From: Breznakia blatticola
GTDB taxonomy: Bacteria > Bacillota_I > Bacilli_A > Erysipelotrichales > Erysipelotrichaceae
Assembly (NCBI RefSeq): GCF_004365815.1
Contig: NZ_SODD01000022.1
Span: 4,949-36,948, forward strand
DNA: 32,000 nucleotides
Direction of reading: 5' to 3'
Shown: piece after piece, positions 5,206 to 29,085 of the stretch
Layout of the letters: each line of letters opens with the position of its first letter
Position numbering within the stretch: the first letter of the stretch is position 1
The notes under the pieces: generated by a model
Databases searched by the model: none
What the model saw: only the letters and a program-made list of their open reading frames with translations
What the model was told of the DNA's origin: nothing
Program-made: the position numbers and the translations under genes

Positions 5206-5418
5206 ATGATCGAAAACACCAAAAACATGAAATTGGATAAAAATCTAAAATACGTGTTTGGCATTGTGCAATTGTTTAAGTTTGAACACGAGATAAATGA
5301 TTTAAAAAGATGGGTCAGAGCAAAAGACTCATCTTTTTTACGTACTAATGCTGATAATTTTGCTGAAATGCTATTGTAAGAAAGAAATCATGCAAAATCA
5401 GATAAACATGCTAGATAG

Positions 5419-5745
5419 TTCTATGAGTGGTGTCACGGTAATGATTGGCAATCAATTGTAGACAAAGATACAAAAGCACTAGTTGAATTATCAAATTCTG
5501 ACTATTTGTTTTGTAAGCCCATAGAAAAGTTACATGTTCCATTATTAATGATTGGTAGTAAAGACGATGAAATGTGTAGAGATGATATTGAGGACGAATA
5601 TAATGAATTATCAAAGATTGTTCATGATGCAACAATCGAAATGTTTGATAATGGAAATCATCTATTGATTTTATCTCGAGCTATCGAAGTAGCCGACAGT
5701 ATCAAGAGATTCATTCATACAAATGATATAAAAATGAGTACATAG
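5419..5745 (+). pseudogene. C-terminal remnant of an alpha/beta-hydrolase (N-terminal nucleophile part missing)
   Basis: The frame is open only from 5419, after a TAG at 5416-5418. It encodes '...KLHVPLLMIGSKDDEMC...MFDNGNHLLIL...', the Asp/His end of an alpha/beta-hydrolase fold. There is no upstream GxSxG region and no credible RBS or ATG (the ORF track uses TTG 5506). Region 5206-5418 holds only short broken frames. Confidence 0.45.
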
Positions 5746-5870
5746 TGCGAGTAATGTTTTTGTACGATGATGTAGAGTCTTTGTCGGTTTGCCAAGTGTA
5801 AAGAGCGAGTATTTGTTTAGGATGTAAACCTTTAAAGTTTAGATCTTATGCAAGTTCAAACAATATATAT

Positions 5871-5906
5871 ATTAGCAAGAACATGTTCTTGCTAATTTTA
5901 TTTTCT
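5871..5906 (+). terminator. Rho-independent terminator
   Basis: The perfect palindrome ATTAGCAAGAAC-AT-GTTCTTGCTAAT (5871-5896) is followed by TTTTATTTTCTTT. Confidence 0.7.
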
Positions 5907-5996
5907 TTATATGCATAACGTATTTTTGTTCTTGTTGTGTAGCGTCATAAAAAGTGTAGATATTGCAATAGACTATCTACTTGAATCAATTTGTCA

Positions 5997-6005
5997 TGGT
6001 ATACT
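5997..6005 (+). promoter_or_regulatory. Candidate extended -10 promoter element for the SNF2/SWIM pair
   Basis: TGgTATACT at 5997-6005, about 24 nt upstream of ATG 6029. No good -35 at 17-nt spacing (CTACTT). Confidence 0.3.
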
Positions 6006-6028
6006 ATAGGTAAATATATGGGGGTTGT

Positions 6029-8656
6029 ATGACAAAACATAATAAATTAGAATTCATTTTTACCACAGATAGTTTTGTGGTTGATCAACCGCAAATCGTT
6101 CTTAGTCATGAACAAGAAAAATGGAAACAAGCTTTTTTGAAAAATCGCTACTATGCATTATATCAATTTGGCTTGCATAACACTGAGGATTCTATTAGTT
6201 TCTCTGCATATTACTTGCGAGAAATAGTACAGACTTTTTTTAGAGAAATAACGAATAGTCCTGACCTGGAATTGTTAAGAGATAAAGCAAAACTTAAGTT
6301 ATCAAAAAATGCGATGAATGACTTATTAAGTAAGGTACCATTTGTTGTTGGTAATGAATATGTTGATAAGAAGTGGATTGCAAATATAATTAAAGAATTG
6401 CTAAAAATATTCAGAACTGAGATTAAAGCTTATAAAGGTTCTGTAAATTTATATATTACTGAAAAAAGCCAAAATTTACGAGTGCCTGAACGTGTCTTTT
6501 TTCATTTGGTCGAAAACAAGGAGGGGGAATATCCATTTGCATTTTTAGCTACATATGCTACAGAAGAAAGTAAAGGAAAAGTAAAACATGTACCTTTGGC
6601 GTATGCACTGACAGAGTTTAAGAATGACCGTTCAAAACTTTTGCAGCTTCTAGGTTGTTTAAATAAAGTCGCAGATGTATCAAATCTAATTGGTGGGTTT
6701 ATTGAAAGTGGTGAATTATTTCATTCACTTGGCTTAGACGAACAAGAAGCATATCAATTTTTAAAAGATATACCGGCAATTGAACAAGCTGGTGTCTTGT
6801 GCCGAGTTCCAGATTGGTGGAAGCAGAAGAATGCGTCGGTTTCGATGAATGTGGTATTAGGAGAAAAGGAACCTACACTACTTGGGGCTGATTCATTGTT
6901 GAGTTTGCAACCAAAACTTATGGTTGATGGAGTGGAACTGACAAGACAGGAAGTGGAACAACTTTTAAAGGAAAGTGAAGGACTTGCATTACTAAAAGGA
7001 AAATGGGTAGAAGTCAATCATGAGAAGTTACAAAAATTGTTAGATCAAATTGACGAAGTTGATCGTGATGATGTAAGTTTATTTGAAGCATTACGAATGG
7101 GATTGCATGGAACAGACGACACAGAAGATCCAGATGGCAATGTATATATAAGTAATGGAATGTGGATGAATAAATTCTTGCATAAATTGAGAACACCATC
7201 AATTATCAAAGGGGCAAAAGAACCGAGTAGTTTTCTAGCAACCTTACGTCCATATCAAAAAAATGGATTTCACTGGCTCGATTATATGCATCAACTAGGT
7301 TTAGGAGCATGTATCGCTGATGATATGGGGTTAGGTAAAACGGTACAAGTTCTAGCTTATTTAGAGCGTTTACGTACTACAAAAACGGACGCAAAAGTAT
7401 TACTTGTGGTTCCTGCATCATTATTAGGAAACTGGGAAAAAGAGATCAATAAATTTGCACCTGAAATGGATTACTATATTTTGCATGGGAAAAGTGCAAA
7501 ACTGTTAGAACTTGATTTTAAAGAACAATCATCATTTTTGGTGATGACAACATATGGAATGGCTAGTCGTATAGAAAGTATCAAAGACGAAGTATGGGAT
7601 ACACTTGTACTAGATGAAGCGCAAGCGATTAAAAATCCATCGACTAAACAAACAAGAGCGATTAAGAAACTACAAGGAAGAATGCGCATTATAATGACAG
7701 GAACACCAATTGAGAATAACTTGACAAACTTATGGTCATTATTTGATTTTCTTAACAAAGGATTGCTTGGGACTTCAACAGAATTTGGTGATTTCTGTAA
7801 GGAATTAGCTAAAGAAGCTTCTGGTTATGCACGTTTAAAATCTATTGTTTCACCATTTATGTTACGTCGTTTAAAATCTGATAAAAAGATTATTAGTGAT
7901 TTACCGGACAAAATCGAAATGATTGATCATATTAATTTGTCGAAGAAACAAGTGGTATTGTATCGTAAACTTGTTGATGATTTAGGTAGAACTTTACATG
8001 AAGTGGAAGGAATCAATCGACGCGGGGTAGTACTTGCATATTTAACAAAGTTTAAACAATTATGTAATCACCCAGATCAATATTTAGGACAAGAGATTTA
8101 TACACCAAACGAAAGTGGAAAGTTTGAGTATTTACGCGAGTTATGCGAGACGATTTATGAAAAAAGAGAACGTCTATTAATTTTCACGCAGTTTACTGAA
8201 GTGATACCTCAACTGCAAGATTTTCTAACAGGTATCTTTAAACAAGAAGGACTTGTATTGCATGGAAAGACTTCAATTAAAAAACGCCAGGAAATTGTTG
8301 ATACATTCCAAGGGGAAGCATATGTTCCGTATGTAATTTTATCTTTAAAAGCAGGAGGGACTGGTTTGAATTTGACCAAAGCAAGTCATGTCATTCATTT
8401 TGATCGTTGGTGGAATCCAGCAGTTGAAAATCAAGCAACAGATCGTGCTTACCGTATTGGTCAAAAGCAAAATGTAATGGTACATAAATTTGTTTGTAGA
8501 GGCACGATTGAAGAAAAAATCGATGCATTAATTAATTCAAAAAAAGAACTTGCTGAAAATGTAATTGGATCTGGCGGAGAAAACTGGATTACCGAGATGA
8601 GCAACCAAGAATTAATGGATATGTTAAAACTAGATACAGGAGCAGGATATGAGTAG
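6029..8656 (+). CDS. SNF2/Rad54-family helicase-like ATPase with a long N-terminal accessory region (YwqA/RapA-like)
   Basis: Motif I is 'ADDMGLGKTVQ' and motif II is 'LVLDEAQAIKN' (DEAQ at 7613-7624). 'MTGTPIENN', 'LKAGGTGLNLT' and 'WWNPAVENQATDRAYRIGQ' (motifs V/VI) are also present. About 400 aa precede the ATPase core. Confidence 0.92.
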   Translation: MTKHNKLEFIFTTDSFVVDQPQIVLSHEQEKWKQAFLKNRYYALYQFGLHNTEDSISFSAYYLREIVQTFFREITNSPDLELLRDKAKLKLSKNAMNDLLSKVPFVVGNEYVDKKWIANIIKELLKIFRTEIKAYKGSVNLYITEKSQNLRVPERVFFHLVENKEGEYPFAFLATYATEESKGKVKHVPLAYALTEFKNDRSKLLQLLGCLNKVADVSNLIGGFIESGELFHSLGLDEQEAYQFLKDIPAIEQAGVLCRVPDWWKQKNASVSMNVVLGEKEPTLLGADSLLSLQPKLMVDGVELTRQEVEQLLKESEGLALLKGKWVEVNHEKLQKLLDQIDEVDRDDVSLFEALRMGLHGTDDTEDPDGNVYISNGMWMNKFLHKLRTPSIIKGAKEPSSFLATLRPYQKNGFHWLDYMHQLGLGACIADDMGLGKTVQVLAYLERLRTTKTDAKVLLVVPASLLGNWEKEINKFAPEMDYYILHGKSAKLLELDFKEQSSFLVMTTYGMASRIESIKDEVWDTLVLDEAQAIKNPSTKQTRAIKKLQGRMRIIMTGTPIENNLTNLWSLFDFLNKGLLGTSTEFGDFCKELAKEASGYARLKSIVSPFMLRRLKSDKKIISDLPDKIEMIDHINLSKKQVVLYRKLVDDLGRTLHEVEGINRRGVVLAYLTKFKQLCNHPDQYLGQEIYTPNESGKFEYLRELCETIYEKRERLLIFTQFTEVIPQLQDFLTGIFKQEGLVLHGKTSIKKRQEIVDTFQGEAYVPYVILSLKAGGTGLNLTKASHVIHFDRWWNPAVENQATDRAYRIGQKQNVMVHKFVCRGTIEEKIDALINSKKELAENVIGSGGENWITEMSNQELMDMLKLDTGAGYE

Positions 8657-9380
8657 AAATTATTGGAAGTCTGAATCATACTATGATCAACCATCAGAGA
8701 GTACCTTAAAAACTAATTCATCTAATTCGCAGAAAAAGATGAAAGAAAAAGGTGTGGAATTAGAACCTATCATTATTACTGGTAGAAGTATTGCCAATAA
8801 CTGGTGGGGGAAAGCATGGTGTATGAATCTTGAGAGATATGCTGATTATGATTCTCGATTACCAAGAGGAAAACGTTATGTTCGAATGGGAACGGTTATT
8901 GACTTGAAAATCGAAAAAGGAAAAATTGCTGCAAGAGTACAAGGAAATCGCAAAACTCCATACAAAATTGAAGTTCGAATCAGCCCACTTTCAGAAGCAA
9001 AGTGCCAAGCAATTATTCAAAAAAGCAGCCATAAAATTGAGAATTTAGAAGCCCTTGTTAGTGGGCAATTCCCTGAAGAATTAAAAGATGTTTTCCTTTC
9101 AAGCGAAGGCCTATTTCCATCACCAAAAGAGATAAGCTTTAACTGCAGTTGTCCTGATTGGGCAAATATGTGTAAACATGTTGCAGCTGTATTATATGGG
9201 GTGGGAGCTCGCTTTGATAATGACCCACTATTATTCTTCCGTTTGCGTGGAATTGAAGTTGACCGCTTTATTGATGTTGCAATTGCTAATAAAGTAGAAA
9301 GTATGTTAGAAAATGTTCATGTGAAAAGCAAGCGAATTCTTAATGAAGATGATATATCTTCGTTATTTGGTATCTTATAA
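8649..9380 (+). CDS. SWIM zinc-finger domain protein
   Basis: 'NCSCPDWANMCKHVAAVLYG' is the CxCx(n)CxH SWIM signature (9144-9179). The start overlaps the SNF2 stop by 8 nt, and an AGGAGCAGGA RBS lies inside the SNF2 3' end. Confidence 0.85.
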   Translation: MSRNYWKSESYYDQPSESTLKTNSSNSQKKMKEKGVELEPIIITGRSIANNWWGKAWCMNLERYADYDSRLPRGKRYVRMGTVIDLKIEKGKIAARVQGNRKTPYKIEVRISPLSEAKCQAIIQKSSHKIENLEALVSGQFPEELKDVFLSSEGLFPSPKEISFNCSCPDWANMCKHVAAVLYGVGARFDNDPLLFFRLRGIEVDRFIDVAIANKVESMLENVHVKSKRILNEDDISSLFGIL

Positions 9381-9667
9381 AAATATACATAACTGAACAA
9401 ACAATTGAAAGAGTTGTAGTAGATCCTATCGTGCTTAGTGTTTTACACGATGATAGACGAGAGATTTGAATTTGAAACACTTACAATTTGATGTCAGTTT
9501 GTTAGGTGAAAAGTGTCCATATTTGTTCTCTAGTAACAATGATGGATACTTTTCTTATATCGAATACGTAGTAAAAAATTGAAATTATCTCATAAATAAG
9601 GATATATGACGAGTTTTCTTCTGCAAGTGATTATATTTATTTATCGGTCCAAAGTATATAAGCCACA

Positions 9668-9696
9668 TTCACATCCTATCTAATCTTTGATATAAT
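9668..9696 (+). promoter_or_regulatory. Strong sigma-A promoter of the jetABCD-like operon
   Basis: -35 TTCACA (9668-9673), a 17-nt spacer ending in TGa, then -10 TATAAT (9691-9696), giving an extended -10. It lies at the end of a 314-nt intergenic gap. Confidence 0.55.
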
Positions 9697-9718
9697 GCAA
9701 ATGAAAAGCGAGAGTATT

Positions 9719-11203
9719 ATGGAAATTTATGAGAAACTAATTAAACAAGTTACAGAAGTAAAATACTTACAGGCGGAGAATGCAGATCGATATCGTGTAA
9801 TTATCCGTCATTTTTTTAATGAATATGAAAGTATACAATATTGGTTATTTAAAGAAGATGTATATGAGATGATGATGGACACTGGCTTTTTTAAAGACTA
9901 TACAATTGAAAAATGTCAAAGCGATTTGGAAGCATTAATCGAGTGGGGAAATTTGAGCGCCATTCAAGATACGTCCAAAGTAACAACAATTGATGAATTT
10001 AAGAATAAAAAGTATCGATACCAACTAAATGAATATACTGTAGAGATTGAACGTATGATTTTACGTTTAGAAAATTTGGAAATAGAAGGAGCGTCACTAG
10101 AACCAACCTTGTTGGAACGATTGGCTACTTCTTTACGTAATTTTCCTAAAATCTTACAAAAGAATAGTGAAGGAATTAGTGTTTGGTGGCGTGATGTAAA
10201 CAATGATTTCATGAGATTGAATCAAAACTACCAAGATTATTTGAAAACCTTAAACTCACAACGAGCAGAAGAATTGATGCAGTCTGAAGAGTTTCTTGTC
10301 TACAAAGATCATTTGATTTCATATTTACGTAACTTCGTGTTGGGGTTACAAAAGCATGGGTCGATTATTGGAGGATATTTGCAACATGTAAATACAAAGG
10401 ATGTAGATTCCATGGTAGCAGAAGTAGTTGCCTATGAAATGTCAATCCCACGTTTGGATCGTATCATTGATGAAGAAGAATTAGAAACTTCCATTCGTAA
10501 ACGTTGGAATAATCTCATACATTGGTTCGTGGATGGCATAAGACAAAGTGAGTTATCAAGACTGTATGATACGACTAATGAAGTCATTCGCAAAATTACT
10601 CGTTATGCACAACAAATTAGTGAGAGTAAACACCGTAATGCAAATCGTAAGCAAGAGTATAAACATATCGCCAACATTTTTGGAAAATGTGATTCCTTAT
10701 TTGAAGCACATTGTTTGAGTGCACAAGTATTTGGTGTACGAGATATGTTTCATTTTGTGGATTTAGATGCGCGTAGTACAGATAATATAGATAGTGGTGT
10801 ATATGATGAAAAACCAAGTATGAGAAAACTTGAACCTCGTGCACGTATCGCAAGGAAAACAACGACACGTGAAGTAGCAAGAGATTACGCATTAGAAAAA
10901 CAGATGTATCTACTACAGGTGGAAGCAGAAAAAAAGAAACAACAAGATACACTTAATGAACTTATGCAAGAAGGAAAGATAACATTTCAGGAACTCCCTT
11001 TAATTTCTGCGTTTACGCGTAAAATGTTACTTACATGGGTTTCCAAAGCACTGCAAAATAAAAACAAGCAAGCAAAGACTGAATTTGGTACACGCTATAA
11101 AGTACATGTACCTGATGTTGAAGATACATGCAAAGTAGAGTGTGAAGATGGAATATTTCACGCACCTAATTTTGTGATTGAGTTTATGGAGGATGTACAA
11201 TGA
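9719..11203 (+). CDS. jetA: Wadjet type II JetA-like protein (DUF2397 / TIGR02677-type, kleisin-like subunit)
   Basis: It is the first gene of the four-gene cassette and about 494 aa long. The N-terminal 'VKYLQAENADRYRVIIRHFF' resembles the conserved start of the TIGR02677 family, as I recall it. The start is set at ATG 9719 because ORF-track ATG 9695 lies inside the -10 box. ATG 9701 remains possible if the mRNA is leaderless. Confidence 0.7.
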   Translation: MEIYEKLIKQVTEVKYLQAENADRYRVIIRHFFNEYESIQYWLFKEDVYEMMMDTGFFKDYTIEKCQSDLEALIEWGNLSAIQDTSKVTTIDEFKNKKYRYQLNEYTVEIERMILRLENLEIEGASLEPTLLERLATSLRNFPKILQKNSEGISVWWRDVNNDFMRLNQNYQDYLKTLNSQRAEELMQSEEFLVYKDHLISYLRNFVLGLQKHGSIIGGYLQHVNTKDVDSMVAEVVAYEMSIPRLDRIIDEEELETSIRKRWNNLIHWFVDGIRQSELSRLYDTTNEVIRKITRYAQQISESKHRNANRKQEYKHIANIFGKCDSLFEAHCLSAQVFGVRDMFHFVDLDARSTDNIDSGVYDEKPSMRKLEPRARIARKTTTREVARDYALEKQMYLLQVEAEKKKQQDTLNELMQEGKITFQELPLISAFTRKMLLTWVSKALQNKNKQAKTEFGTRYKVHVPDVEDTCKVECEDGIFHAPNFVIEFMEDVQ

Positions 11204-12315
11204 AAGAACTACAAAGCTTAATCGCAAAACAGTGGATAATCAAGGCAGATGATCCAGAATTGTACTATAAGATTAAAGACCAACTGAAAATACTCCGCAA
11301 TTTTGTGCAGGAGAAATTAGGATATCAAATCATAGTGAGTCCTTTGATGATTAAACTTGAGAAACTACCAGCAAAAGCGGAACCTTGGATGGGGATTCAA
11401 GAATTTCAAAGTATTAAAGAATATCAAATGCTTTGTTTCGTATTAATGTTTTTAGAAGACAAAGAAAATGAGCAACAATTTGTACTTTCGGAAATTACAG
11501 AGTTTATACTTGTGCAGTTCCAAGATGAAAGCATTGATTGGACAAAATTCACAACACGTAAGCAATTGATTCGAGTACTTAAGTTTTGTGTTGATATGGG
11601 AATGTTAGTTGTTAATGATGGAGATGGGGAATTGTTTTCAAAAGATGTTGAAATTGAAGTGTTGTATGAAAATACTGGAATTTCACGCTATTTCCTGCGT
11701 AATTTTTTTAGTGATGTGTTACGTTTAAATCAGCCAAGAGATTTTCATGATTCGACATGGTTTGATGTTGATGAAACCAGTGGTATTGTACGTCGACAAA
11801 GAGTGTATCGTCGATTATTGCTTTCACCAGGAGTCTATCGTGAAAACGATGCATTAGAAGATTTTGCTTATCTTAGAAATAAAAGAAATCAAATTGAACG
11901 TGATTTTCAAAGTTTCTTACCTTGTGAAATACACTTACATAAATCTAGTGCCTATTTAGTTTTGGAGGACTATAAAAAAAGTTCATACTTCCCGAAAACC
12001 CAAGCCAAAGATGAAGTGCTTTTGTGTATATGCAAAGCTATTCAAGAGTATGCAGGTGAGCAAGTATTAGCAGAACATGAAATACTGTCTTTATCATTTA
12101 AAGATTTTGAACATCTTGTATTTCAATGTATTACACGAATTATTAAAGCTTTACCCAAAACGTATCGTGATAAAACAGTTTCATTACTAAGCAATGAGGC
12201 AATTGAACACTTAATTAACTATGGGTTTGTCGTAGTGGAAAATGAAATAGTGAAGATCCAACCAATTGTGGCGAAAATTGGTGGTAGCTATGAAGGAGTA
12301 GATGACAATGAATAA
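11200..12315 (+). CDS. jetB: Wadjet type II JetB-like protein (DUF2398 / TIGR02678-type, KITE-like subunit)
   Basis: A 371-aa protein in second position. It overlaps jetA by ATGA (11200-11203) and has a GGAGGA RBS. The call rests on size, position and operon context rather than a sharp motif. Confidence 0.65.
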   Translation: MKELQSLIAKQWIIKADDPELYYKIKDQLKILRNFVQEKLGYQIIVSPLMIKLEKLPAKAEPWMGIQEFQSIKEYQMLCFVLMFLEDKENEQQFVLSEITEFILVQFQDESIDWTKFTTRKQLIRVLKFCVDMGMLVVNDGDGELFSKDVEIEVLYENTGISRYFLRNFFSDVLRLNQPRDFHDSTWFDVDETSGIVRRQRVYRRLLLSPGVYRENDALEDFAYLRNKRNQIERDFQSFLPCEIHLHKSSAYLVLEDYKKSSYFPKTQAKDEVLLCICKAIQEYAGEQVLAEHEILSLSFKDFEHLVFQCITRIIKALPKTYRDKTVSLLSNEAIEHLINYGFVVVENEIVKIQPIVAKIGGSYEGVDDNE

Positions 12316-15300
12316 GAAATGGAAAATGCATCGGTTTGGACTTATCGATTTTTGGTATTATGTAAATGAAGAATTCTACTTTTCTGATGGACATATGCTT
12401 CTTAGAGGGAGTAATGGTAGTGGGAAATCTGTAACGTTACAAAGTTGTATTCCTTTGCTACTGGACGGAAATCGTAGTAGCGAAAGAATCGATCCGTTTG
12501 GAACACGCGCAAGAAAAGTAGACACTTATTTAATTGATGAAGACAGTGATCGTGAGGAACGCATTGGCTATCTTTACTTGGAATTTAAGAAAAGTGATAG
12601 TGAGTTATATACAACTATAGGAATGGGACTTAGAGCACGTAAAAATAAACCACTTGAAAGTTGGTATTTTGTGATTGAAGACAATATGCGTGTCAATAAA
12701 GACTTGCAACTTATCAAACACGGTCTTGCGCTGACGAAAAAAGAATTACGTAATATCATTGGTAATCAATTAATTGAGCAACAAAAACAATATATGGAAA
12801 AAGTTAATAAAGTACTTTTTGGTTTTGAGACAACTGAAGAATATAAGGAAGCAATTGATTTGTTACTTCAAGTACGTCGTCCAAAATTAAGTAATGATTT
12901 TAAGCCAACAATGTTAAACGAGGTACTTAATCAATCTTTACAACCACTAAGTGAAGAAGACTTACGTCCTATGAGTGAAGCGATTACCAACATGGACAGC
13001 ATCAAAGACCAGTTGGATACACTCAAGATTAATATTCAAGCTGCAAATGTTATTGAAAAAGAATACGATTTACATAGCTATTACAATGTGTTTAGAAAGC
13101 TTGAACTTTATGAGCAAGAACAAAAACAACTAAAATCTTTGCAAAATGAATTGGAATTCAAAGGAAAAGAAATTCAACGTATTCAACAAGAAAGAGAGTA
13201 TTTAGATGCGCGTCAAATCGATTTAGATAATGAGCGTAGTATCTTAGAAGAAGAACGTCGAAGTTTAGCTAGTGACGACATACAAGCAAAACAAGATACT
13301 TTACAAGATGCAAATCATAAACATGGTGATTTAGTTATTGCTTTGGCCAATAAAGAAAAGAAAATAAACGCACTTGATAGTGATCTGTGGGATCAACGCA
13401 AGCGCGAAAAACAAAAACAAGATGAGATGGATGCTAAGTACGCACAACTACAAATATATATTCAAGAATTGGATGGACTTCATGAATCCTTTGTTTTTGG
13501 TGAACACGAATCCATGAAAGAATCCGTCTTTCCAAAACTTGAAAGACAATATGATTTAAATCATGAACGTACACAACTACAAAATCTGATAACGAAGACA
13601 AGAGAAGGATTGCAACACTTTAAAAATCTTTCGATTTACCAAATGCAAAAGAATAATATTCAAGAAGCTTACGAACTTGATAAAGAGGTATATACGATAC
13701 AAGAAAAATTGTTGGTGCAACAACAACAAAACTATCAAAATGTAGTGGAAGACTATAAAGCAAATATCGTCAGTTGGAATTATGAAAACCATTTACTAAA
13801 ACTAAGTGATGAACAAAAACAACAAATGATGAAAGCTTTACTTGCTTATGAAGATCAGCAAGATTATCACACCATACGTGATTGTCTCGATACGCTCTAC
13901 AAGAAACAGGAAAAAGAATTTCTACATAAACAATTATTCCTAGACAATAAAAGCAAAGAAATTCACCAACAAAAAAGTCAAATGGAAAGAGAGATGGAAG
14001 TTTGGCAAAATAAGCAAGATATTCAGCCAGAACTACACCAAGAAGCTCTAGAAAATCGTAAGTTGTTGCGCAAAATGAAGATTCCATTTGTGCCGTTTTA
14101 TAGTGTGTTGGAGTTTGATCCAAACATGCAAGACTCACAGCGAAATTATTGGGAAGAAGTGATTGATGCAACTGGCTTACTTCACGCAACAATTGTTGAA
14201 GAAAAGTACCGTGAACAAATCTTATCTATGGATGAAGCGTATGCAGATGTCTATGTCTTTACAGAACGCACTTTAGAGTCTATTGATTCTTATGAAATTA
14301 AAGCAAACACAACGCTTGCTCAAATCATGGATACATTACAGATTGTAGAGAAAAGTAAAGTCATTGTACACGAACAGACAATTCAGTTAGGATATCTTGA
14401 GAAACGAATTTCACAAAGAAATCAATCCAAATACATTGGAAGTAAGGCGCGTGAAGCATACCGTAAAAAGATGTTGATGCAAATGCAAGAGCAACTTGAT
14501 GCAATAACTTTATTGATGGAAGAAAATCAAAAAGAGTGGCAAACATTACAAGATGATAAACAACAACTAGAAAATGAGTATCATGGATTTCCTAGTGAAA
14601 CGCGATTATATGATTCCTATAAAGCAGTACACAATGTAGAAATTGCATTAGAGAATCTACAGTCCCAAATGGATATTAAAAACAAGAACTTACAAGAGAT
14701 TCATGCAAAAATGCAACCGATTGTTTTAGAAATCAATAAGATTGCTAAACTTGTGGATATCGAAGAAAATGAAGTAGTTTTTCAAGAAAAATTGGAAGTA
14801 ATGAAGGACTATGAAACAGTATTCACAAGATTTAGTGACTTGCAAAATAAATACTATAGTGATTTTGAGATTTTGCAGACACGAAAAGAAATGTTAGAAA
14901 GTACGCAACTACAATTAGATGAAATACAAGGTGATGTGATACGTATAAAACAAGATATTACGAAAGTAGAAGGTCAAATTTCAATACTTGAGGAACAACT
15001 TCAAGACTTGGGAATTGCAGATATCCAACAACGCTTAGAAACAATTGGTAATCGACTTTTCTCAATTGGAAAAGAGCGAGATAACAATCAATTAACGATT
15101 GGAGATCACAATCGAAATATTCTTAATTTAAATGATGCAAAAAATGAGATAGTTGAGCAAATCAAACAGCAAGAAGTAAAAGTTGTGCAATATCAAGATG
15201 TTCTTATCGAAGAATTACAAATTGGATATTTTGAACATCCTATTAATTCCTTTCAAGAACTTAAAGCGTACAAAACAGAAGATCATGAAAAACGTATGTT

Positions 15301-16306
15301 ACTGGGAAAAAATACTGCGAAGATGCAAGATATTTTCCATAATAATAAGGCACCATTAGCTGAATACCATTTATCAAATACACCATTACAAATAATGGAT
15401 GGTGTTGAAGGAGTACCAACACGTTTTGTGATTGATGCTAAATTTGCTGGAAAACAAGTGAATTTCTTCAAACTAGTTGAAATTTTGAAAGAAACGATTG
15501 AGGAACATGAAAAACTACTACTCGATAGTGATCGTCAATTATTTGAAGATATATTGATTCACACGATTAGTAGTAAGGTAAAATACAAAATTAATCAAAG
15601 TCGACGTTGGGTCGAACAAATGAATGTATATATGGATGCAATGAATACAAGTAGTAATTTGAAATTGCAACTTGTATGGAAGGCAAAAAAAGCTGACGAT
15701 GATGAACAAATGCATGTAAATGAGTTAATTAAGTTATTAGAAATTGATGCAGCAATTATCAAGCCAAGCGACTTAACAAAAATTTCTCGTCATTTCCGTT
15801 CAAAGATTAACCAAGCACGGACCATCGCAAATAGTACAGAAAGCTTTAGTAGTTTTCATCAAATTATGAAAGAAGTAATGGACTATCGTTCATGGTTTGA
15901 ATTTACTATTATTTATGAAAAAGACTTAGTAAAAGATAAGGAACTAACGAATAATAAATTTGCGACTTTCAGTGGTGGAGAGAAAGCAATTTCGATGTAC
16001 ATTCCTTTATTTTCAGCCGTGGCTGCAAAGTTTAGTAGTGGAAAAGCGGATGCACCAAGTATGATTGCTTTAGATGAAGCGTTTGCGGGAGTTGATGATA
16101 ACAATATCGAATCAATGTTCGAATTAATAGAAAAGTTTAACTTTGATTATATTATGAACTCACAAATCTTATGGGGAGATTATCCAAGTGTTAAGTCTTT
16201 AAATATATATGAATTACATCGACCTGAAGGAGGTAAGTTCGTTAGTATATTTAGATACCACTGGAATGGACAAGAAAAAAGTTATATTGCAGGAGATGTT
16301 GCATGA
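12308..16306 (+). CDS. jetC: Wadjet JetC-like SMC-family ATPase (TIGR02680-type)
   Basis: The N-terminus 'WKMHRFGLIDFWYY..FYFSDGHMLLRGSNGSGKS' carries Walker A (12407-12430). A roughly 1000-aa E/K/Q/L-rich coiled-coil-like middle follows. The C-terminus has 'FSGGEKA' (15968-15988) and Walker B 'MIALDEAF' (16061-16084). GAAGGAG (12292-12298) is optimally spaced for ATG 12308. ATG 12302 is the alternative start. Confidence 0.85.
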   Translation: MNKKWKMHRFGLIDFWYYVNEEFYFSDGHMLLRGSNGSGKSVTLQSCIPLLLDGNRSSERIDPFGTRARKVDTYLIDEDSDREERIGYLYLEFKKSDSELYTTIGMGLRARKNKPLESWYFVIEDNMRVNKDLQLIKHGLALTKKELRNIIGNQLIEQQKQYMEKVNKVLFGFETTEEYKEAIDLLLQVRRPKLSNDFKPTMLNEVLNQSLQPLSEEDLRPMSEAITNMDSIKDQLDTLKINIQAANVIEKEYDLHSYYNVFRKLELYEQEQKQLKSLQNELEFKGKEIQRIQQEREYLDARQIDLDNERSILEEERRSLASDDIQAKQDTLQDANHKHGDLVIALANKEKKINALDSDLWDQRKREKQKQDEMDAKYAQLQIYIQELDGLHESFVFGEHESMKESVFPKLERQYDLNHERTQLQNLITKTREGLQHFKNLSIYQMQKNNIQEAYELDKEVYTIQEKLLVQQQQNYQNVVEDYKANIVSWNYENHLLKLSDEQKQQMMKALLAYEDQQDYHTIRDCLDTLYKKQEKEFLHKQLFLDNKSKEIHQQKSQMEREMEVWQNKQDIQPELHQEALENRKLLRKMKIPFVPFYSVLEFDPNMQDSQRNYWEEVIDATGLLHATIVEEKYREQILSMDEAYADVYVFTERTLESIDSYEIKANTTLAQIMDTLQIVEKSKVIVHEQTIQLGYLEKRISQRNQSKYIGSKAREAYRKKMLMQMQEQLDAITLLMEENQKEWQTLQDDKQQLENEYHGFPSETRLYDSYKAVHNVEIALENLQSQMDIKNKNLQEIHAKMQPIVLEINKIAKLVDIEENEVVFQEKLEVMKDYETVFTRFSDLQNKYYSDFEILQTRKEMLESTQLQLDEIQGDVIRIKQDITKVEGQISILEEQLQDLGIADIQQRLETIGNRLFSIGKERDNNQLTIGDHNRNILNLNDAKNEIVEQIKQQEVKVVQYQDVLIEELQIGYFEHPINSFQELKAYKTEDHEKRMLLGKNTAKMQDIFHNNKAPLAEYHLSNTPLQIMDGVEGVPTRFVIDAKFAGKQVNFFKLVEILKETIEEHEKLLLDSDRQLFEDILIHTISSKVKYKINQSRRWVEQMNVYMDAMNTSSNLKLQLVWKAKKADDDEQMHVNELIKLLEIDAAIIKPSDLTKISRHFRSKINQARTIANSTESFSSFHQIMKEVMDYRSWFEFTIIYEKDLVKDKELTNNKFATFSGGEKAISMYIPLFSAVAAKFSSGKADAPSMIALDEAFAGVDDNNIESMFELIEKFNFDYIMNSQILWGDYPSVKSLNIYELHRPEGGKFVSIFRYHWNGQEKSYIAGDVA

Positions 16307-17592
16307 TTGAACAATTTGTCCGATATCTAAAAGATACACCAGGACTAGTTCGTTTTATGGATGCGTGGAAGGAAAAATATATCAAACTAAATACACTAGG
16401 TGGCACTATTAAACTAGATGATTTAAGCACCGAAGAGAAAAGTGCGATCGGTGCTTTAATCGGACGTGACTTAAGTCAGCAAAATTCTATCGTATTAAGT
16501 TATACAAAACTTATTAAAGCTTTGCGCAATACAAGATTTGAGGAAGTTGATTTTCAAGATGTTGTACTTGCATATTATGATGGATGTATTGTTTCCAAAA
16601 AAGAGGAAAATGCGGTACAACAAGAAAAAAGGAAAATATTAAAACATAAACTATTTAATGATCTTAAGGCGACTATAGCTTATGGGTGGTTAGTAAAGAT
16701 GGAAGTAGAAAATCCATCTTTATTCACACAAATGCTTCAACAATATAAACGAAATCCACAAAGAATTATGATGATTACCCAAGCACTTAATACACTACCC
16801 ATTTGGGAAAATAAGGTACGTTCTTTAAGTGTGTTTGCTAGCAGTGTTGCACAAGATCCACATTTTTTTGATGGTGGTAGCAACCTTAATTTCTTGTTGC
16901 ACGCCATTCAATATGCATTAGATGTACAAGAAACACCAACAAGTCGTATTGAAAAAAATGAAATACTTGCAAGAGCTGGGTTGCTAAAGGAAGAAACCAC
17001 AAATTACATTACCGTATTTCAAGTACAAATGAAAAACAAAAAGAATATTGAAGATGTTGGTCTTACTTGGTTTACAAAACAAGGACAGTCGATAAATCTA
17101 CATATTGGAAATTTACAGACATATCAAGAAGCTTATGGTAGTACCCATATTCTTATTTTAGAAAATCCTTCAGTATTTCAAGTGCTTCAACAATATTTAA
17201 TTGATCAAAAAATCAAGAATGTAGGGATTGTTTGTACATATGGAGAGTTAACTTTAGCTGCCTATAAACTTTTAGATATTCTCAAACTATGCGATGCACA
17301 TTTGTATTACGCAGGAGATTTTGATCCTGAAGGAGTACTTATTGCACAAAGAGTAAGTCAACGTCTAGAAGGGAACATCTCATTTCTTCACTATACGAAA
17401 AGTGATTTTGAATGTGCAAGTGCGAAAGCTATTCACTCAGATTCACGTCTGCAGAAATTAGAAAATGTTTCATTAAGTGATTTAAGTGTAATTAAAGAGT
17501 GTATACGAGAGTTTCAAACTGTTGGGTATCAAGAAGCATTACTTACTAAATATATGCGGACAATTGATGTGTGGAATATGAGTATGAAGTAA
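16303..17592 (+). CDS. jetD: Wadjet JetD-like protein with a C-terminal Toprim-type nuclease domain (TIGR02679-type)
   Basis: 'HILILENPSVF' (Glu codon 17161-17163) plus 'LYYAGDFDPEG' (DxD at 17317-17325) form a Toprim E...DxD arrangement in the C-terminal half. It overlaps jetC by ATGA and has an AGGAGA RBS. Confidence 0.8.
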   Translation: MIEQFVRYLKDTPGLVRFMDAWKEKYIKLNTLGGTIKLDDLSTEEKSAIGALIGRDLSQQNSIVLSYTKLIKALRNTRFEEVDFQDVVLAYYDGCIVSKKEENAVQQEKRKILKHKLFNDLKATIAYGWLVKMEVENPSLFTQMLQQYKRNPQRIMMITQALNTLPIWENKVRSLSVFASSVAQDPHFFDGGSNLNFLLHAIQYALDVQETPTSRIEKNEILARAGLLKEETTNYITVFQVQMKNKKNIEDVGLTWFTKQGQSINLHIGNLQTYQEAYGSTHILILENPSVFQVLQQYLIDQKIKNVGIVCTYGELTLAAYKLLDILKLCDAHLYYAGDFDPEGVLIAQRVSQRLEGNISFLHYTKSDFECASAKAIHSDSRLQKLENVSLSDLSVIKECIREFQTVGYQEALLTKYMRTIDVWNMSMK

Positions 17593-17719
17593 ATGATGAT
17601 GCAATTGTGTCATAGAAAATACGTAAATGATACTATCGAAAGTGTATTGGAAAGACAAAAACATCGAAAATTTGAGTTTATTGTCCATGCATATACTCTT
17701 TCAATGAAAATATACAAAA

Positions 17720-17780
17720 GATAGATACTGTCATTCGTTTTACATCAAACGAGTAGATGACAATAGCTATCTTTTCTTTT
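17720..17780 (+). terminator. Rho-independent terminator closing the jet operon (possibly bidirectional)
   Basis: A long imperfect hairpin pairs GATAGATACTGTCAT (17720-17734) with ATGACAATAGCTATC (17757-17771), with 2 mismatches. An inner CGTTT/AAACG pairing extends it. TTTTCTTTT follows. Confidence 0.6.
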
Positions 17781-17925
17781 ACAAATTTGTAGAATTACTA
17801 AAAAATTTCAAACTTCACTTACAAGTTGAATTGTATGTCGATACATAACACGTATGTCTATTTATATCCCACATGTATATTATTATCTATTCTTATTTAT
17901 GACAACTAAAGCAAATAATCACAAC

Positions 17926-18486
17926 TTACTTTTTGGTGTAAATATCACTTTCTGCAGGCATCGCTTGTCCTGAAGTCATTCTAATTTTATCGTTATTAGT
18001 AGATACGATGATTGTTTTTTCACTTCCATCATCCGTAGGTACATAGCACTCAATGTCTGTTCCAGGAAGATAAATTCCAACAGCAAATCCGCCTACTGAA
18101 TCTTTATTACCAATACCCCACCAGAAATAATTATTCATTTCATTGTAGTCGATAGATGATGCAATCTGACTGCTTGAATCATCACCAAATTCAGGATCGT
18201 GGAAATATACTGTTCCATCCATGTTTATCGTAACTACATCGCCGTTAGAGTTTACGTAATCTCCAGCAATCGAAGTTCGGTCGTTATTAAGCAACTCATT
18301 CTTTATTGTTTCATTATCTTTAGTTGGATCAGTTTCAACTGGTTGTTTTGATTCTTCATTATTTGAGTCCTCTTTTTTTACCTCATTTGCTTCTTCTTTC
18401 TTATCCGTTTCATTTGCTGATTTCCCATTTGCAAAACATCCTGTACTCAATAATAATACTAGGACCAATAATAATTTCTTTTTCAT
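17926..18486 (-). CDS. Secreted lipoprotein of unknown function
   Basis: 'MKKKLLLVLVLLLSTGC' is a signal peptide with a lipobox-like STGC. It is followed by an acidic low-complexity linker and a ~110-aa globular C-terminus. A GGAGA RBS is present. Confidence 0.7.
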   Translation of the reverse strand: MKKKLLLVLVLLLSTGCFANGKSANETDKKEEANEVKKEDSNNEESKQPVETDPTKDNETIKNELLNNDRTSIAGDYVNSNGDVVTINMDGTVYFHDPEFGDDSSSQIASSIDYNEMNNYFWWGIGNKDSVGGFAVGIYLPGTDIECYVPTDDGSEKTIIVSTNNDKIRMTSGQAMPAESDIYTKK

Positions 18487-18647
18487 AGATTATCTCCTTT
18501 ACATATGATTGTTCTTCTATAATCATAATATCACAAAAACAATAAAGTTTTGACGTTAAAAGTATCTATGATAGGAAGCAGCTATCGTTAATGATGATTT
18601 AAAGTTATTGCAAAGTATTGATTATTAAAGTGAAAGTGCTGGCTGTG

Positions 18648-18680
18648 AAAAAAGAGTCTATAAGCTTATTTTAAAGACTC
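18648..18680 (-). terminator. Weak candidate terminator for the small membrane-protein gene
   Basis: On the minus strand, GAGTCT-(15 nt)-AGACTC is followed by TTTTTT. The hairpin spans the stop codon. The stem is only 6 bp. Confidence 0.3.
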
Positions 18681-19013
18681 ATTTGAAAATCGTTGTTTTA
18701 GTTTCTTATCTTCGTGTAAATACCAAGTTACATACAGTAAATAAGAAGCAATTAGTAGTACTAAACCGATGGTATCGTTCGTGATATACGCATTAATAAC
18801 AAATGGAAAATTTAGCACAATCCCTAAAGCGATTAGTGCTTTTTTTACAAGAATTCTAGATTCATCCATATATTTTTCTTTTTTTTCATCATCCAATTTG
18901 TAATAAAATGTATAATCACCAAAAATCAGAGCCTTTTTGCTTGATAATCGAATCCCATAAATTACAAATGCAATTGTCCAATATGCAATGTTGGTAATAA
19001 CCATCCCTAACAT
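18666..19013 (-). CDS. Small integral membrane protein of unknown function
   Basis: About 115 aa with three or four hydrophobic helices. The start is moved to the ATG encoding 'MLGMVITN' because GAGGGG lies 8 nt upstream of it. The ORF-track start at 19031 overlaps that RBS. Confidence 0.55.
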   Translation of the reverse strand: MLGMVITNIAYWTIAFVIYGIRLSSKKALIFGDYTFYYKLDDEKKEKYMDESRILVKKALIALGIVLNFPFVINAYITNDTIGLVLLIASYLLYVTWYLHEDKKLKQRFSNESLK

Positions 19014-28124: not shown

Positions 28125-28194
28125 GCGTGTCATTATTTTTTTGTGTATGATTATAGATAAGTAAGTGTGTCAATTTCGAAAAGAGGAAGAATGT

Positions 28195-29085
28195 ATGAAT
28201 GTATTAGAAGTAAAAGGATTACATAAAAAATATGGAAGTCGTGATATTTTACATGATGTCAACTTTCATGTGGGTCTTCATGAAATTGTAGGGTTTGTTG
28301 GTCCAAATGGAACAGGAAAAAGTACAACGATGAAATGTATTGCTGGTTTAACAGAGTTTCATCAAGGACAAATTTTGATTCATGGACATGATATTCAAAA
28401 AGATCGAATTGCTGCATTAAGTGAGCAATCTTCATTTATCGAAGGTCCCGCACTATATCCTGAACTGAGTGGAAAAGATAATATTAAGTTATTTGCTTCA
28501 CTTCGTGGTGTGAGTAAAGAACGCGTACAAGAAATGATTGATATGACAAAACTAGAAAAGCATATCAATCGAAAGGTTGGTCAATACTCAATGGGGATGA
28601 AGCAACGTGTGGCACTTGCAATCGCACTAATGAGTAAACCTAAGCTAATTATGTTAGATGAACCAACGAATGGTCTAGATCCTTCAGGTATTTTAGACTT
28701 ATTAAGTATGGTAAAAGAAATTACCCAAACAGAAGAAGTTGGCTTTCTTTTTTCATGTCACACATTATCAGATGTTGAGAAAATTGCTGATCGTGTCATC
28801 TTTATTAAGGATGGGTCGATGGTAGATGCATCAACTTATGAGCAATCACAAAAGATTTCATATCATGTAAAAGTAAGCAAGAAAGCACATGAAGTGTTTA
28901 CGCAGTTAGGTTTAATCTATCAATATCATGATTTGTTTCAAGCATATACAGTGGAAATTAAAGACATAACTCTTGATACTTTATTGAGTGCACTTCAAGA
29001 TGCACAAATTGAAATACTAGAAATTACGAAGATTGAACAAAGTGTAGAAACGATGTATAAGGATATTTATCATGAAGAGAGCTAA
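28195..29085 (+). CDS. ABC transporter ATP-binding protein (ABC-2/DrrA-like exporter type)
   Basis: It has Walker A 'GPNGTGKST', signature-like 'YSMGMKQR' and Walker B 'LIMLDEPTNGLD'. The start is moved to ATG 28195, downstream of GAGGAAG. Confidence 0.92.
   Translation: MNVLEVKGLHKKYGSRDILHDVNFHVGLHEIVGFVGPNGTGKSTTMKCIAGLTEFHQGQILIHGHDIQKDRIAALSEQSSFIEGPALYPELSGKDNIKLFASLRGVSKERVQEMIDMTKLEKHINRKVGQYSMGMKQRVALAIALMSKPKLIMLDEPTNGLDPSGILDLLSMVKEITQTEEVGFLFSCHTLSDVEKIADRVIFIKDGSMVDASTYEQSQKISYHVKVSKKAHEVFTQLGLIYQYHDLFQAYTVEIKDITLDTLLSALQDAQIEILEITKIEQSVETMYKDIYHEES

What the first reader, a model, noticed from the sequence alone, without database searches (positions are those of the whole stretch)
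9668..17780. Complete four-gene SMC-family cassette matching a Wadjet type II (JetABCD) anti-plasmid system
**Operon structure (seen in sequence).** Four co-directional genes of about 494, 371, 1332 and 429 aa have their own strong promoter (9668-9696) and terminator (17720-17780). They are tightly coupled, with ATGA overlaps at 11200-11203 and 16303-16306 and an 8-14 nt overlap at 12302-12315.

**Motifs (seen in sequence).**
- Gene 3 has an N-terminal P-loop 'LLRGSNGSGKS', a roughly 1000-aa heptad-like E/K/Q/L-rich middle, and a C-terminal 'FSGGEKA' plus 'MIALDEAF'. That is an SMC/Rad50-type ABC ATPase head split by a long coiled coil.
- Gene 4 has a Toprim-like E (ILILENP) and DxD (GDFDPEG).
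- The gene 1 N-terminus ('AENADRYRVIIRHFF') looks like the DUF2397 family.

**Established knowledge.** This order and these sizes match the TIGR02677/02678/02680/02679 cassette (accessions from memory), which was classified as Wadjet type II. In that system JetABC is an MksBEF-like loop-extruding complex that senses small circular DNA, and JetD is the Toprim nuclease that cleaves it.

**Inference.** This locus is a functional plasmid-restriction system. It would be a barrier to transforming this organism.
Basis: partly seen in the sequence, partly recalled or inferred. Interest (0 to 1): 0.85.

Follow-up and report, generated by a model that had tools for sequence, protein, structure and literature searches.

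The report
Type II Wadjet anti-plasmid operon
This is an intact four-gene Wadjet type II (JetABCD) system, a known bacterial defence that finds small circular DNA and cuts it, so it is an ordinary, correctly identified example that probably makes this gut bacterium hard to transform with plasmids.

Summary
Window 9668-17780 carries four co-directional, translationally coupled genes: jetA (494 aa), jetB (371 aa), jetC (1332 aa) and jetD (429 aa). A near-consensus promoter precedes them and a hairpin with a U-run follows.

All four proteins match the Wadjet type II models:
- Pfam: DUF2397, DUF2398, SbcC_Walker_B/SMC_N, and DUF3323 plus DUF2399.
- NCBIfam: TIGR02677/02678/02680 score above cut-off. 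TIGR02679 scores below it (159.9 vs 196 bits).
- PADLOC: JetA2, JetB2, JetC2 and JetD2 are the best models (E 1e-190 to 0).

JetA, JetB and JetC are full-length homologues of the cryo-EM chains of the Neobacillus vireti type II complex (PDB 9QE0/9QE1). A high-confidence JetD model (pLDDT 94.8) matches MksG, type I JetD, topoisomerase VI-A and Spo11. The Toprim E and DxD residues are invariant in 40 homologues, and the JetC ATPase motifs are intact.

The A-B-C-D order is kept in all 71 related loci that hold all four genes, while the neighbouring genes differ. The sequence comes from Breznakia blatticola. Activity itself is inferred, not shown.

Verdict: a new member of a known kind, of low interest.

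The parts
9668..9696 (+). Putative sigma-70-type promoter: -35 TTCACA (9668-9673), 17-nt spacer, extended -10 TG-a-TATAAT (9688-9696)
   Evidence: It scores 11 of 12 and is the best site in 9300-18000. About 0.014 such sites are expected by chance in the 314-nt intergenic stretch, and 0.0007 with the TG. No transcript data exist, so it is predicted only.
9719..11203 (+). jetA, type II kleisin subunit (494 aa; the longest ORF starts at 9695 and gives 502 aa)
   Evidence: Pfam DUF2397 E 7e-137. TIGR02677 327 bits against a cut-off of 166. PADLOC JetA2 E 9e-191. PDB 9qe0_E JetA E 4e-79 over residues 6-489.
11200..12315 (+). jetB, type II KITE subunit (371 aa), the size of the tandem-KITE form
   Evidence: Pfam DUF2398 E 4e-88. 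TIGR02678 188 bits against a cut-off of 125. PADLOC JetB2 E 7e-126. PDB 9qe0_D JetB E 1.5e-56, residues 7-364 against 20-378 of 389.
12308..16306 (+). jetC, SMC-type ABC ATPase (1332 aa). Walker A GSNGSGKS at nt 12407-12430, signature FSGGE at 15968-15982, Walker B MIALDE at 16061-16078
   Evidence: TIGR02680 702 bits against a cut-off of 463. PADLOC JetC2 1233 bits. Pfam SbcC_Walker_B. PDB 9qe0_A JetC E 1e-167. Motif positions.
16303..17592 (+). jetD, CAP-like plus Toprim nuclease (429 aa). Toprim E287 at nt 17161-17163, D339 at 17317-17319, D341 at 17323-17325
   Evidence: Pfam DUF3323 E 1.5e-32 and DUF2399 E 2e-18. PADLOC JetD2 E 6e-99. E287-N-P and G338-D-x-D-P-E-G are invariant in 40 homologues. 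The AF2 model has pLDDT 94.8. Its best PDB matches are MksG 8b7f, JetD 7til, Topo VI-A 1d3y and Spo11 8uru.
17716..17780 (+). Putative intrinsic terminator: a long imperfect AT-rich hairpin followed by UUUUCUUUU. An A-run precedes it, so it may work in both directions
   Evidence: RNA fold gives -18.8 kcal/mol, z = -3.4, and 1 of 200 shuffles folds as well. The simple terminator scan did not report it.

Best explanation
Window 9668-17780 is a complete, intact Wadjet type II operon (jetA-jetB-jetC-jetD) in the chromosome of Breznakia blatticola.

**Proposed mechanism.** All the steps below are inferred from homology to the reconstituted type II complex of Neobacillus vireti.
1. JetC dimers (an SMC-type ATPase) are bridged by the kleisin JetA, which carries the tandem-KITE protein JetB. 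Together they form a dimeric DNA motor.
2. The motor loads on DNA and extrudes loops using ATP.
3. On a small closed circle, up to a few tens of kb, extrusion runs to completion and the motor stalls.
4. The stalled state recruits and activates the JetD dimer. Its Toprim site (E287, D339, D341) cuts the DNA without sequence specificity.
5. The linearised plasmid is then degraded by host nucleases.

Linear DNA and the chromosome are spared. The expected result is fewer plasmids established after transformation or conjugation.
For: **Shown here.**
- All four proteins match the type II families.
- JetA, JetB and JetC align over nearly their full lengths with the N. vireti cryo-EM chains.
- The JetD model has the Topo VI-A/Spo11/JetD fold, and its Toprim residues are invariant.
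- The Walker A, signature and Walker B motifs of JetC are intact.
- No frameshift or internal stop is present.
- The genes are translationally coupled, each with a Shine-Dalgarno sequence.
- A near-consensus promoter and a terminator flank the operon.
- Gene order A-B-C-D is kept in 71 of 71 related loci that hold all four genes, while the neighbouring genes differ. The cassette is therefore the unit.

**From the literature.**
- nvJET-II cleaves circular but not linear DNA, needs JetABC, JetD and ATP, and restricts plasmids in B. subtilis (10.1101/2025.03.10.642339).
- Deleting a native jetABCD raised plasmid uptake in Clostridium cellulovorans (PMC12287153).
Against: - Nothing here shows that the locus is expressed or active.
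- JetD scores below the curated TIGR02679 cut-off (159.9 vs 196 bits).
- JetD is only 43% identical to its nearest relative found.
- JetD has no sequence-level match to any solved structure. Its link to characterised JetD proteins therefore rests on HMMs and a predicted fold.
- The Shine-Dalgarno sequence before ATG 9719 is weak (GAGAG, 4-nt spacer), and the leader would be only about 15 nt.
- All mechanistic steps are transferred from a homologue. By tblastn, related loci share a median of 46% (JetA), 41% (JetB), 35% (JetC) and 29% (JetD) identity with these proteins.
Confidence: 0.9

Rival explanations
1. The cassette is a correctly identified Wadjet II operon, but it is silent or inactive in this organism. 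On this view it is a cryptic locus that does not limit plasmid uptake in practice.
For: No expression or activity data exist. The Shine-Dalgarno sequence before jetA is weak and the leader is short. Degraded cassettes do occur in relatives: L057 and L079 keep only fragments of jetA and jetC.
Against: All four ORFs are intact over 7.9 kb and their catalytic motifs are preserved. The operon has a near-consensus extended -10 promoter. An unused locus of this size would be expected to accumulate stop codons.
Confidence: 0.08
2. The complex acts mainly as an MksBEF-like chromosome-organising condensin rather than as a defence system.
For: JetABC belongs to the MukBEF/MksBEF branch of SMC complexes. 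The resting geometry of the N. vireti type II complex resembles MukBEF.
Against: The nuclease gene jetD is translationally coupled to jetC and keeps its catalytic residues. It is present in all 84 loci, although those loci were retrieved through their JetD match. The characterised type II system cleaves plasmids. The locus is patchily distributed and sits among different neighbours in different genomes, as accessory genes do.
Confidence: 0.02
3. The system also, or mainly, restricts other circular invaders such as circularised phage genomes, phage-plasmids or excised integrative elements.
For: Target choice depends on DNA shape and size, not sequence. The closest relative sits next to a Cas9-Cas1-Cas2 locus, which is a defence-island setting.
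Against: A review states that Wadjet targets plasmid DNA directly and describes it as an anti-plasmid system (PMC10586767). From my own recollection of Doron et al. 2018, which I did not read here, no phage protection was seen for Wadjet. Nothing in this window bears on the question.
Confidence: 0.05

Closest known systems
Wadjet type II of Neobacillus vireti LMG 21834 (nvJET-II; PDB 9QE0/9QE1; bioRxiv 10.1101/2025.03.10.642339)
   Same: It has the same four genes in the same order. JetA, JetB and JetC align nearly end to end with the solved chains (E 4e-79, 1.5e-56 and 1e-167). Subunit sizes are similar: 494/371/1332 aa here against 500/389/1371 aa for the chains. JetB has the long form described there as a tandem KITE.
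   Different: The sequences have diverged. JetC residues 918-1037 do not align at all. JetD could not be compared directly, because no type II JetD structure or sequence is in the PDB. The host is an Erysipelotrichaceae gut anaerobe rather than a Bacillus relative. No biochemistry exists for this locus.
Wadjet type I / MksBEFG (E. coli GF4-3 and P. aeruginosa PA14 JetABCD; Corynebacterium glutamicum MksG)
   Same: It has the same overall logic: kleisin, KITE, SMC and a Toprim nuclease. The JetD model matches MksG 8b7f (E 7e-8) and P. aeruginosa JetD 7til (E 1e-6).
   Different: Type I models score far lower or not at all. JetC1 reaches only E 1e-13 over the C-terminal head, and there are no JetA1, JetB1 or JetD1 hits. 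Type I has a shorter SMC and a 242-aa KITE that dimerises. Type I and II JetD are not interchangeable in vitro.
Topoisomerase VI subunit A / Spo11
   Same: The CAP-like plus Toprim architecture of JetD matches. Topo VI-A 1d3y gives TM-score 0.61 normalised to the target over 298 columns, and Spo11 8uru gives E 1e-5. The acidic E and DxD metal site is present.
   Different: Sequence identity is only 12-15%. The cited paper says the JetD CAP domain lacks the catalytic tyrosine, so JetD hydrolyses DNA rather than forming a covalent intermediate. I did not check the tyrosine position in this protein.
MukBEF / MksBEF bacterial condensins
   Same: JetABC is an SMC, kleisin and KITE complex of the same branch.
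   Different: Condensin operons have no jetD nuclease gene. Here jetD is coupled to jetC and conserved.

Membership tests
Wadjet type II (JetABCD-II) | Four genes in the order jetA-jetB-jetC-jetD on one strand, tightly linked | tested here: met
   The ORFs run 9719-11203, 11200-12315, 12308-16306 and 16303-17592, with overlaps of 4, 8 and 4 nt. The same order is seen in 71 of 71 related loci that hold all four genes.
Wadjet type II (JetABCD-II) | JetA of the DUF2397 / TIGR02677 kleisin family | tested here: met
   PF09660 458 bits against a cut-off of 28.5. TIGR02677 327 bits against a cut-off of 166. PADLOC JetA2 E 9e-191.
Wadjet type II (JetABCD-II) | JetB of the DUF2398 / TIGR02678 family, long form (about 370-390 aa, the tandem KITE with four winged-helix domains) | tested here: met
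   PF09661 297 bits and TIGR02678 188 bits against a cut-off of 125. JetB aligns at 7-364 with 20-378 of the solved tandem-KITE chain 9qe0_D, E 1.5e-56. The four-domain fold itself is inferred from that homology. A profile comparison of the two halves found no detectable internal repeat, in line with the strong divergence between lobes reported for nvJetB.
Wadjet type II (JetABCD-II) | JetC of the TIGR02680 family: an SMC-type ATPase of about 1330-1370 aa with Walker A, signature and Walker B motifs | tested here: met
   TIGR02680 702 bits against a cut-off of 463, aligned end to end. PADLOC JetC2 1233 bits. GSNGSGKS, FSGGE and MIALDE are present. 9qe0_A E 1e-167.
Wadjet type II (JetABCD-II) | JetD of the DUF3323 + DUF2399 / TIGR02679 family | tested here: met
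   Both Pfam domains score above their cut-offs, 113.6 vs 26.6 and 66.9 vs 23.4 bits. PADLOC JetD2 E 6e-99 over residues 3-421. One qualification: the NCBIfam equivalog model TIGR02679 scores 159.9 bits, below its cut-off of 196, so this is a divergent member.
Wadjet type II (JetABCD-II) | JetD has a Toprim fold with a conserved acidic metal site (E and DxD) | tested here: met
   E287 and D339/D341 are invariant in 40 homologues. They sit at the ends of predicted strands 282-286 and 333-337. The model matches JetD, MksG, Topo VI-A and Spo11 at probability 1.00.
Wadjet type II (JetABCD-II) | ATP-dependent, shape-selective cleavage of circular DNA, and reduced plasmid establishment in vivo | not testable with these tools
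   This is known for the N. vireti homologue only. It needs transformation assays or biochemical reconstitution for this locus.
MksBEF / MukBEF condensin (no nuclease) | A three-gene SMC, kleisin and KITE operon without a Toprim nuclease gene | tested here: not met
   A fourth gene, jetD, overlaps the jetC stop codon (ATGA at 16303-16306) and encodes a Toprim protein.

The most novel reading that the evidence does not exclude
The nuclease JetD is the fastest-evolving subunit. It is the least conserved of the four in all 70 related loci compared (median identity 29%, against 46% for JetA), and here it falls below the curated family cut-off. The most novel reading is that this lineage of type II systems is diversifying JetD, and its docking surface on JetABC, under pressure from plasmid-encoded anti-Wadjet inhibitors. 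On that reading this divergent Breznakia JetD would have an altered activation interface or inhibitor resistance. A weaker variant is that the adjacent SNF2-SWIM pair, or the 43-codon ORF after jetD, is a lineage-specific accessory of the system.
Probability: 0.07. Interest if true: 0.45.

Novelty: new member of a known kind. Interest (0 to 1): 0.15.

Why it matters
**Practical value.** Breznakia blatticola is a little-studied member of the Erysipelotrichaceae. I recall it as a cockroach-gut isolate, but no tool confirmed that. Anyone trying to develop genetics in it should expect small replicative plasmids to be cut. Possible workarounds are to delete or inactivate jetABCD, use linear or integrative DNA, or use very large replicons. 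Removing a native Wadjet system greatly improved plasmid uptake in Clostridium cellulovorans (PMC12287153).

**Scientific value.** The locus adds one divergent sequence to a family whose first structure and biochemistry appeared in 2025. It does not change what is known about the system.

Tried and rejected
1. **JetD against solved structures by sequence.** The only match was a chance hit to aspartokinase (E 0.33). The link to characterised JetD needed a predicted structure instead.
2. **Internal duplication in JetB.** I ran hhalign on profiles of the N- and C-terminal halves, built from 70 orthologues. It gave probability 0.25% and E 0.24. The tandem-KITE nature therefore cannot be shown from sequence repeats. 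It rests on full-length homology to the solved tandem-KITE chain.
3. **A larger unit including the upstream SNF2 helicase and SWIM protein (6029-9380).** Rejected. The pair is next to the cassette only in this genome. Two of the other 83 loci carry an SNF2 match, in both cases downstream of jetD, and none has a SWIM match. The high PADLOC scores to ZorD and DpdE are general SNF2 similarity. No NCBIfam model reaches its cut-off.
4. **The 43-codon ORF (17593-17724) as a fifth gene.** It fills the gap between the jetD stop and the terminator and is called as a gene on the public contig. It has no tblastn match in the 83 other loci and no PADLOC hit, so it is probably not a gene.
5. **Signs of a mobile island.**
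   - G+C is flat at 0.30-0.35 across the operon and its flanks.
   - There is no tRNA gene and no Rfam match.
   - No integrase or transposase is among the ORFs scanned.
   - The neighbours are sugar-uptake and glycolysis genes.
6. **Other defence systems in the window.** None was found. The PADLOC hits of the ABC-transporter ATPase at 28165-29085 are generic ABC similarity.
7. **Cross-phylum sharing of the cassette.** I checked whether bins labelled Bacteroidaceae or Segatella share the DNA of the Bacillota loci. They do not: identity is at most 78% over less than 1 kb.

Full report

Yes, in every particular. Listing ORFs over 8500-19000 gives four co-directional ORFs on the + strand:
- 9695-11203 (502 aa)
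- 11200-12315 (371 aa)
- 12302-16306 (1334 aa)
- 16303-17592 (429 aa)

Three lines of evidence favour those starts:
- The PADLOC profiles begin to align there, at residue 9 of JetA and residue 3 of JetC.
- The gene calls on the public contig use them.
- The predicted -10 box (9691-9696) overlaps ATG 9695, so a transcript starting near 9703 could not include it.

The junctions are as described:
- ATGA at 11200-11203, preceded by GGAGG.
- GAAGGAG, then ATG 12302 and ATG 12308, overlapping the jetB stop at 12313-12315.
- AGGAG, then ATGA at 16303-16306.

The promoter is TTCACA, 17 nt, TG-a-TATAAT at 9668-9696. It is the only 11-of-12 site in the scanned region. In first-order Markov simulations of the window, about 0.014 such sites are expected by chance in the 314-nt intergenic stretch on that strand, and 0.0007 if the TG is required.

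The simple terminator scan missed the terminator. Folding 17700-17790 gives a long imperfect hairpin at 17716-17775 followed by UUUUCUUUU, at -18.8 kcal/mol and z = -3.4. All quoted peptide motifs are present at the expected places.

**2. What is it?**

| Gene | Pfam | NCBIfam | Best PADLOC model |
|---|---|---|---|
| jetA | DUF2397, E 7e-137 | TIGR02677, 327 bits (cut-off 166) | JetA2, E 9e-191 |
| jetB | DUF2398, E 4e-88 | TIGR02678, 188 bits (cut-off 125) | JetB2, E 7e-126 |
| jetC | SbcC_Walker_B; a sub-threshold SMC_N match spans both ends | TIGR02680, 702 bits (cut-off 463) | JetC2, 1233 bits |
| jetD | DUF3323 and DUF2399 | TIGR02679, 159.9 bits (cut-off 196) | JetD2, E 6e-99 |

JetD therefore falls below the curated NCBIfam cut-off. 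In PADLOC, type I and III models score very weakly or not at all.

A sequence search of the PDB finds a single strong partner for each of JetA, JetB and JetC. These are chains E, D and A of 9QE0/9QE1, with E 4e-79, 1.5e-56 and 1e-167. Those entries are the cryo-EM structures of the type II Wadjet complex of Neobacillus vireti (bioRxiv 10.1101/2025.03.10.642339).

JetD has no sequence match in the PDB, so I tested its fold. Forty homologues were collected and aligned. E287-N-P and G338-D-F-D-P-E-G are invariant among them. AlphaFold2 on that alignment gave a confident model, with mean pLDDT 94.8 and pTM 0.75. Foldseek against the PDB returned, all at probability 1.00:
- the C. glutamicum MksG nuclease 8b7f (E 7e-8)
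- P. aeruginosa JetD 7til (E 1e-6)
- topoisomerase VI-A 1d3y (TM-score 0.61 normalised to the target)
- M. mazei Topo VI
- Spo11

**3. Origin and context**

JetD is 100% identical to an NCBI protein of Breznakia blatticola, which the source names 'uncharacterized protein (TIGR02679 family)'. The next-best homologue is only 43% identical.

The rest of the window encodes ordinary chromosomal functions:
- a GH1 glycosidase
- cellobiose-type PTS components
- an alpha-galactosidase with an AraC regulator and an MFS transporter
- phosphoglycerate kinase and triose-phosphate isomerase
- an ABC-2 transporter

G+C is flat across the window. There is no tRNA gene or Rfam match, and no integrase among the ORFs scanned.

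Immediately upstream lies an overlapping pair: an SNF2 helicase (DUF3670 + SNF2 + Helicase_C) and a SWIM zinc-finger protein.

I gathered 83 related loci and ran tblastn with all window proteins against them and the window's own public contig:
- Every locus that holds all four genes (71 of 71) has them in the order A-B-C-D on one strand.
- The loci lacking jetA or jetB are mostly contigs cut short upstream.
- The SNF2-SWIM pair and the 43-codon ORF after jetD occur only in this genome.
- The neighbours of the three closest relatives are all different. One sits beside Cas9-Cas1-Cas2.

The four-gene cassette is therefore the functional and evolutionary unit.

**4. How it most likely works**

Shown here: intact reading frames, intact ATPase motifs, an intact Toprim metal site, translational coupling, and plausible transcription signals.

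Taken from the literature on the homologue:
- nvJetABC is a dimer of A1B1C2 motor units with ATPase activity.
- Plasmid cleavage needs JetABC, JetD and ATP, and Mn2+ in vitro.
- Linear DNA is spared, while artificially circularised DNA is cut.
- Cuts fall at random positions and leave short 5' overhangs.
- Restriction in vivo fades for circles of about 50 kb and larger.
- The system restricts plasmids when moved into B. subtilis.
- JetD of types I and II cannot be swapped.

Inferred for this locus: the same extrusion-then-cleavage mechanism, and hence a barrier to plasmid establishment in B. blatticola. A native Wadjet system, compared there with the B. cereus Q1 system, has been shown to limit conjugative plasmid uptake in Clostridium cellulovorans (PMC12287153). 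That makes the practical inference reasonable but not proven here.

**5. Rivals**

- A silent or inactive locus cannot be excluded without expression data. It is disfavoured by 7.9 kb of uninterrupted coding sequence with conserved catalytic residues.
- A purely chromosome-organising MksBEF-like role is contradicted by the coupled, conserved nuclease gene.
- A role against other circular invaders is possible in principle, because recognition depends on shape. Nothing here supports it.

**6. Comparison, novelty and score**

This is a member of Wadjet type II by every feature that could be tested. The one qualification is that JetD is a divergent member, below the NCBIfam equivalog cut-off. No paper in the library mentions Breznakia together with Wadjet, so the locus itself is undescribed. 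However, any standard defence-system finder would name it. It is a new member of a known kind.

The only mildly interesting pattern is a consistent conservation gradient across 70 related loci. Median identities are JetA 46%, JetB 41%, JetC 35% and JetD 29%, and JetD is the least conserved in all 70. This fits the reported type-specific JetD-JetABC interface and could reflect an arms race, but I did not test that.

Interest is low (0.15). The value is practical, for anyone wishing to transform this organism.

Noticed in passing
window 6029-9380 (+): An overlapping gene pair lies directly upstream of the operon: an 875-aa SNF2-family helicase (DUF3670 + SNF2 + Helicase_C) and a 243-aa SWIM zinc-finger protein. 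The best NCBIfam match is the SCO1167/SCO6262 helicase family, at 583 bits and far below its cut-off of 1200. The PADLOC hits to ZorD and DpdE look like general SNF2 similarity. The pair is not a conserved neighbour of the cassette: the SWIM protein matches only this genome's own contig among the 84 loci.
   Followed up: partly
window 17593-17724 (+): A 43-codon ORF (MMMQLCHRKYVND...) starts on the base after the jetD stop codon and ends at the foot of the terminator hairpin. It fills the 128-nt gap and is called as a gene on the public contig. It has no match in 83 related loci and no PADLOC hit, so it is probably spurious, but a lineage-specific small protein is not excluded.
   Followed up: partly
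loci L002-L084 compared with window 9719-17592: There is a consistent conservation gradient along the operon. Median tblastn identities are JetA 46%, JetB 41%, JetC 35% and JetD 29%, and JetD is the least conserved subunit in 70 of 70 loci. The kleisin is the slowest-evolving subunit and the nuclease the fastest.
   Followed up: partly
window 5206-6028: An 820-nt stretch between the PTS IIA gene and the SNF2 gene has only short ORFs in several frames. One of them (5506-5745, 79 aa) looks like the C-terminal end of an alpha/beta hydrolase, but the Pfam match is not significant (Hydrolase_4, E 0.2). It may be a decayed gene.
   Followed up: partly
L002 11529-16601: In the closest relative found (a metagenome contig; JetA 70% identical), the type II cassette is followed directly by Cas9, Cas1 and Cas2 genes. 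That is a defence-island arrangement, which is absent from this window.
   Followed up: no
L057 and L079: Two related loci, from a Blautia MAG and a Parabacteroides distasonis bin, keep a full jetD but only fragments of jetA and jetC and no jetB match. This suggests decayed or rearranged cassettes.
   Followed up: no
L007, L009, L013, L028, L076, L079: Several bins labelled Bacteroidaceae, Segatella or Parabacteroides carry type II cassettes whose proteins resemble those of Bacillota (JetA 43-49% identical to the window). Two spot comparisons with Bacillota loci showed little or no DNA similarity (at most 78% over less than 1 kb). The choice between horizontal transfer and mis-binning was not resolved.
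   Followed up: partly
window 6363-6390 (+): This is the only other 11-of-12 promoter-like site in the 32-kb window (TTGATA, 16 nt, TATAAT). It lies inside the SNF2 coding sequence and is probably a chance match in AT-rich DNA.
   Followed up: no
window 17716-17780 and 17926-18486 (-): The terminator hairpin has an A-run before it and a U-run after it. It faces the 3' end of a convergent 186-aa gene for a probable secreted or lipoprotein-like protein (weak DUF6287 match), so it may terminate transcription from both directions.
   Followed up: no
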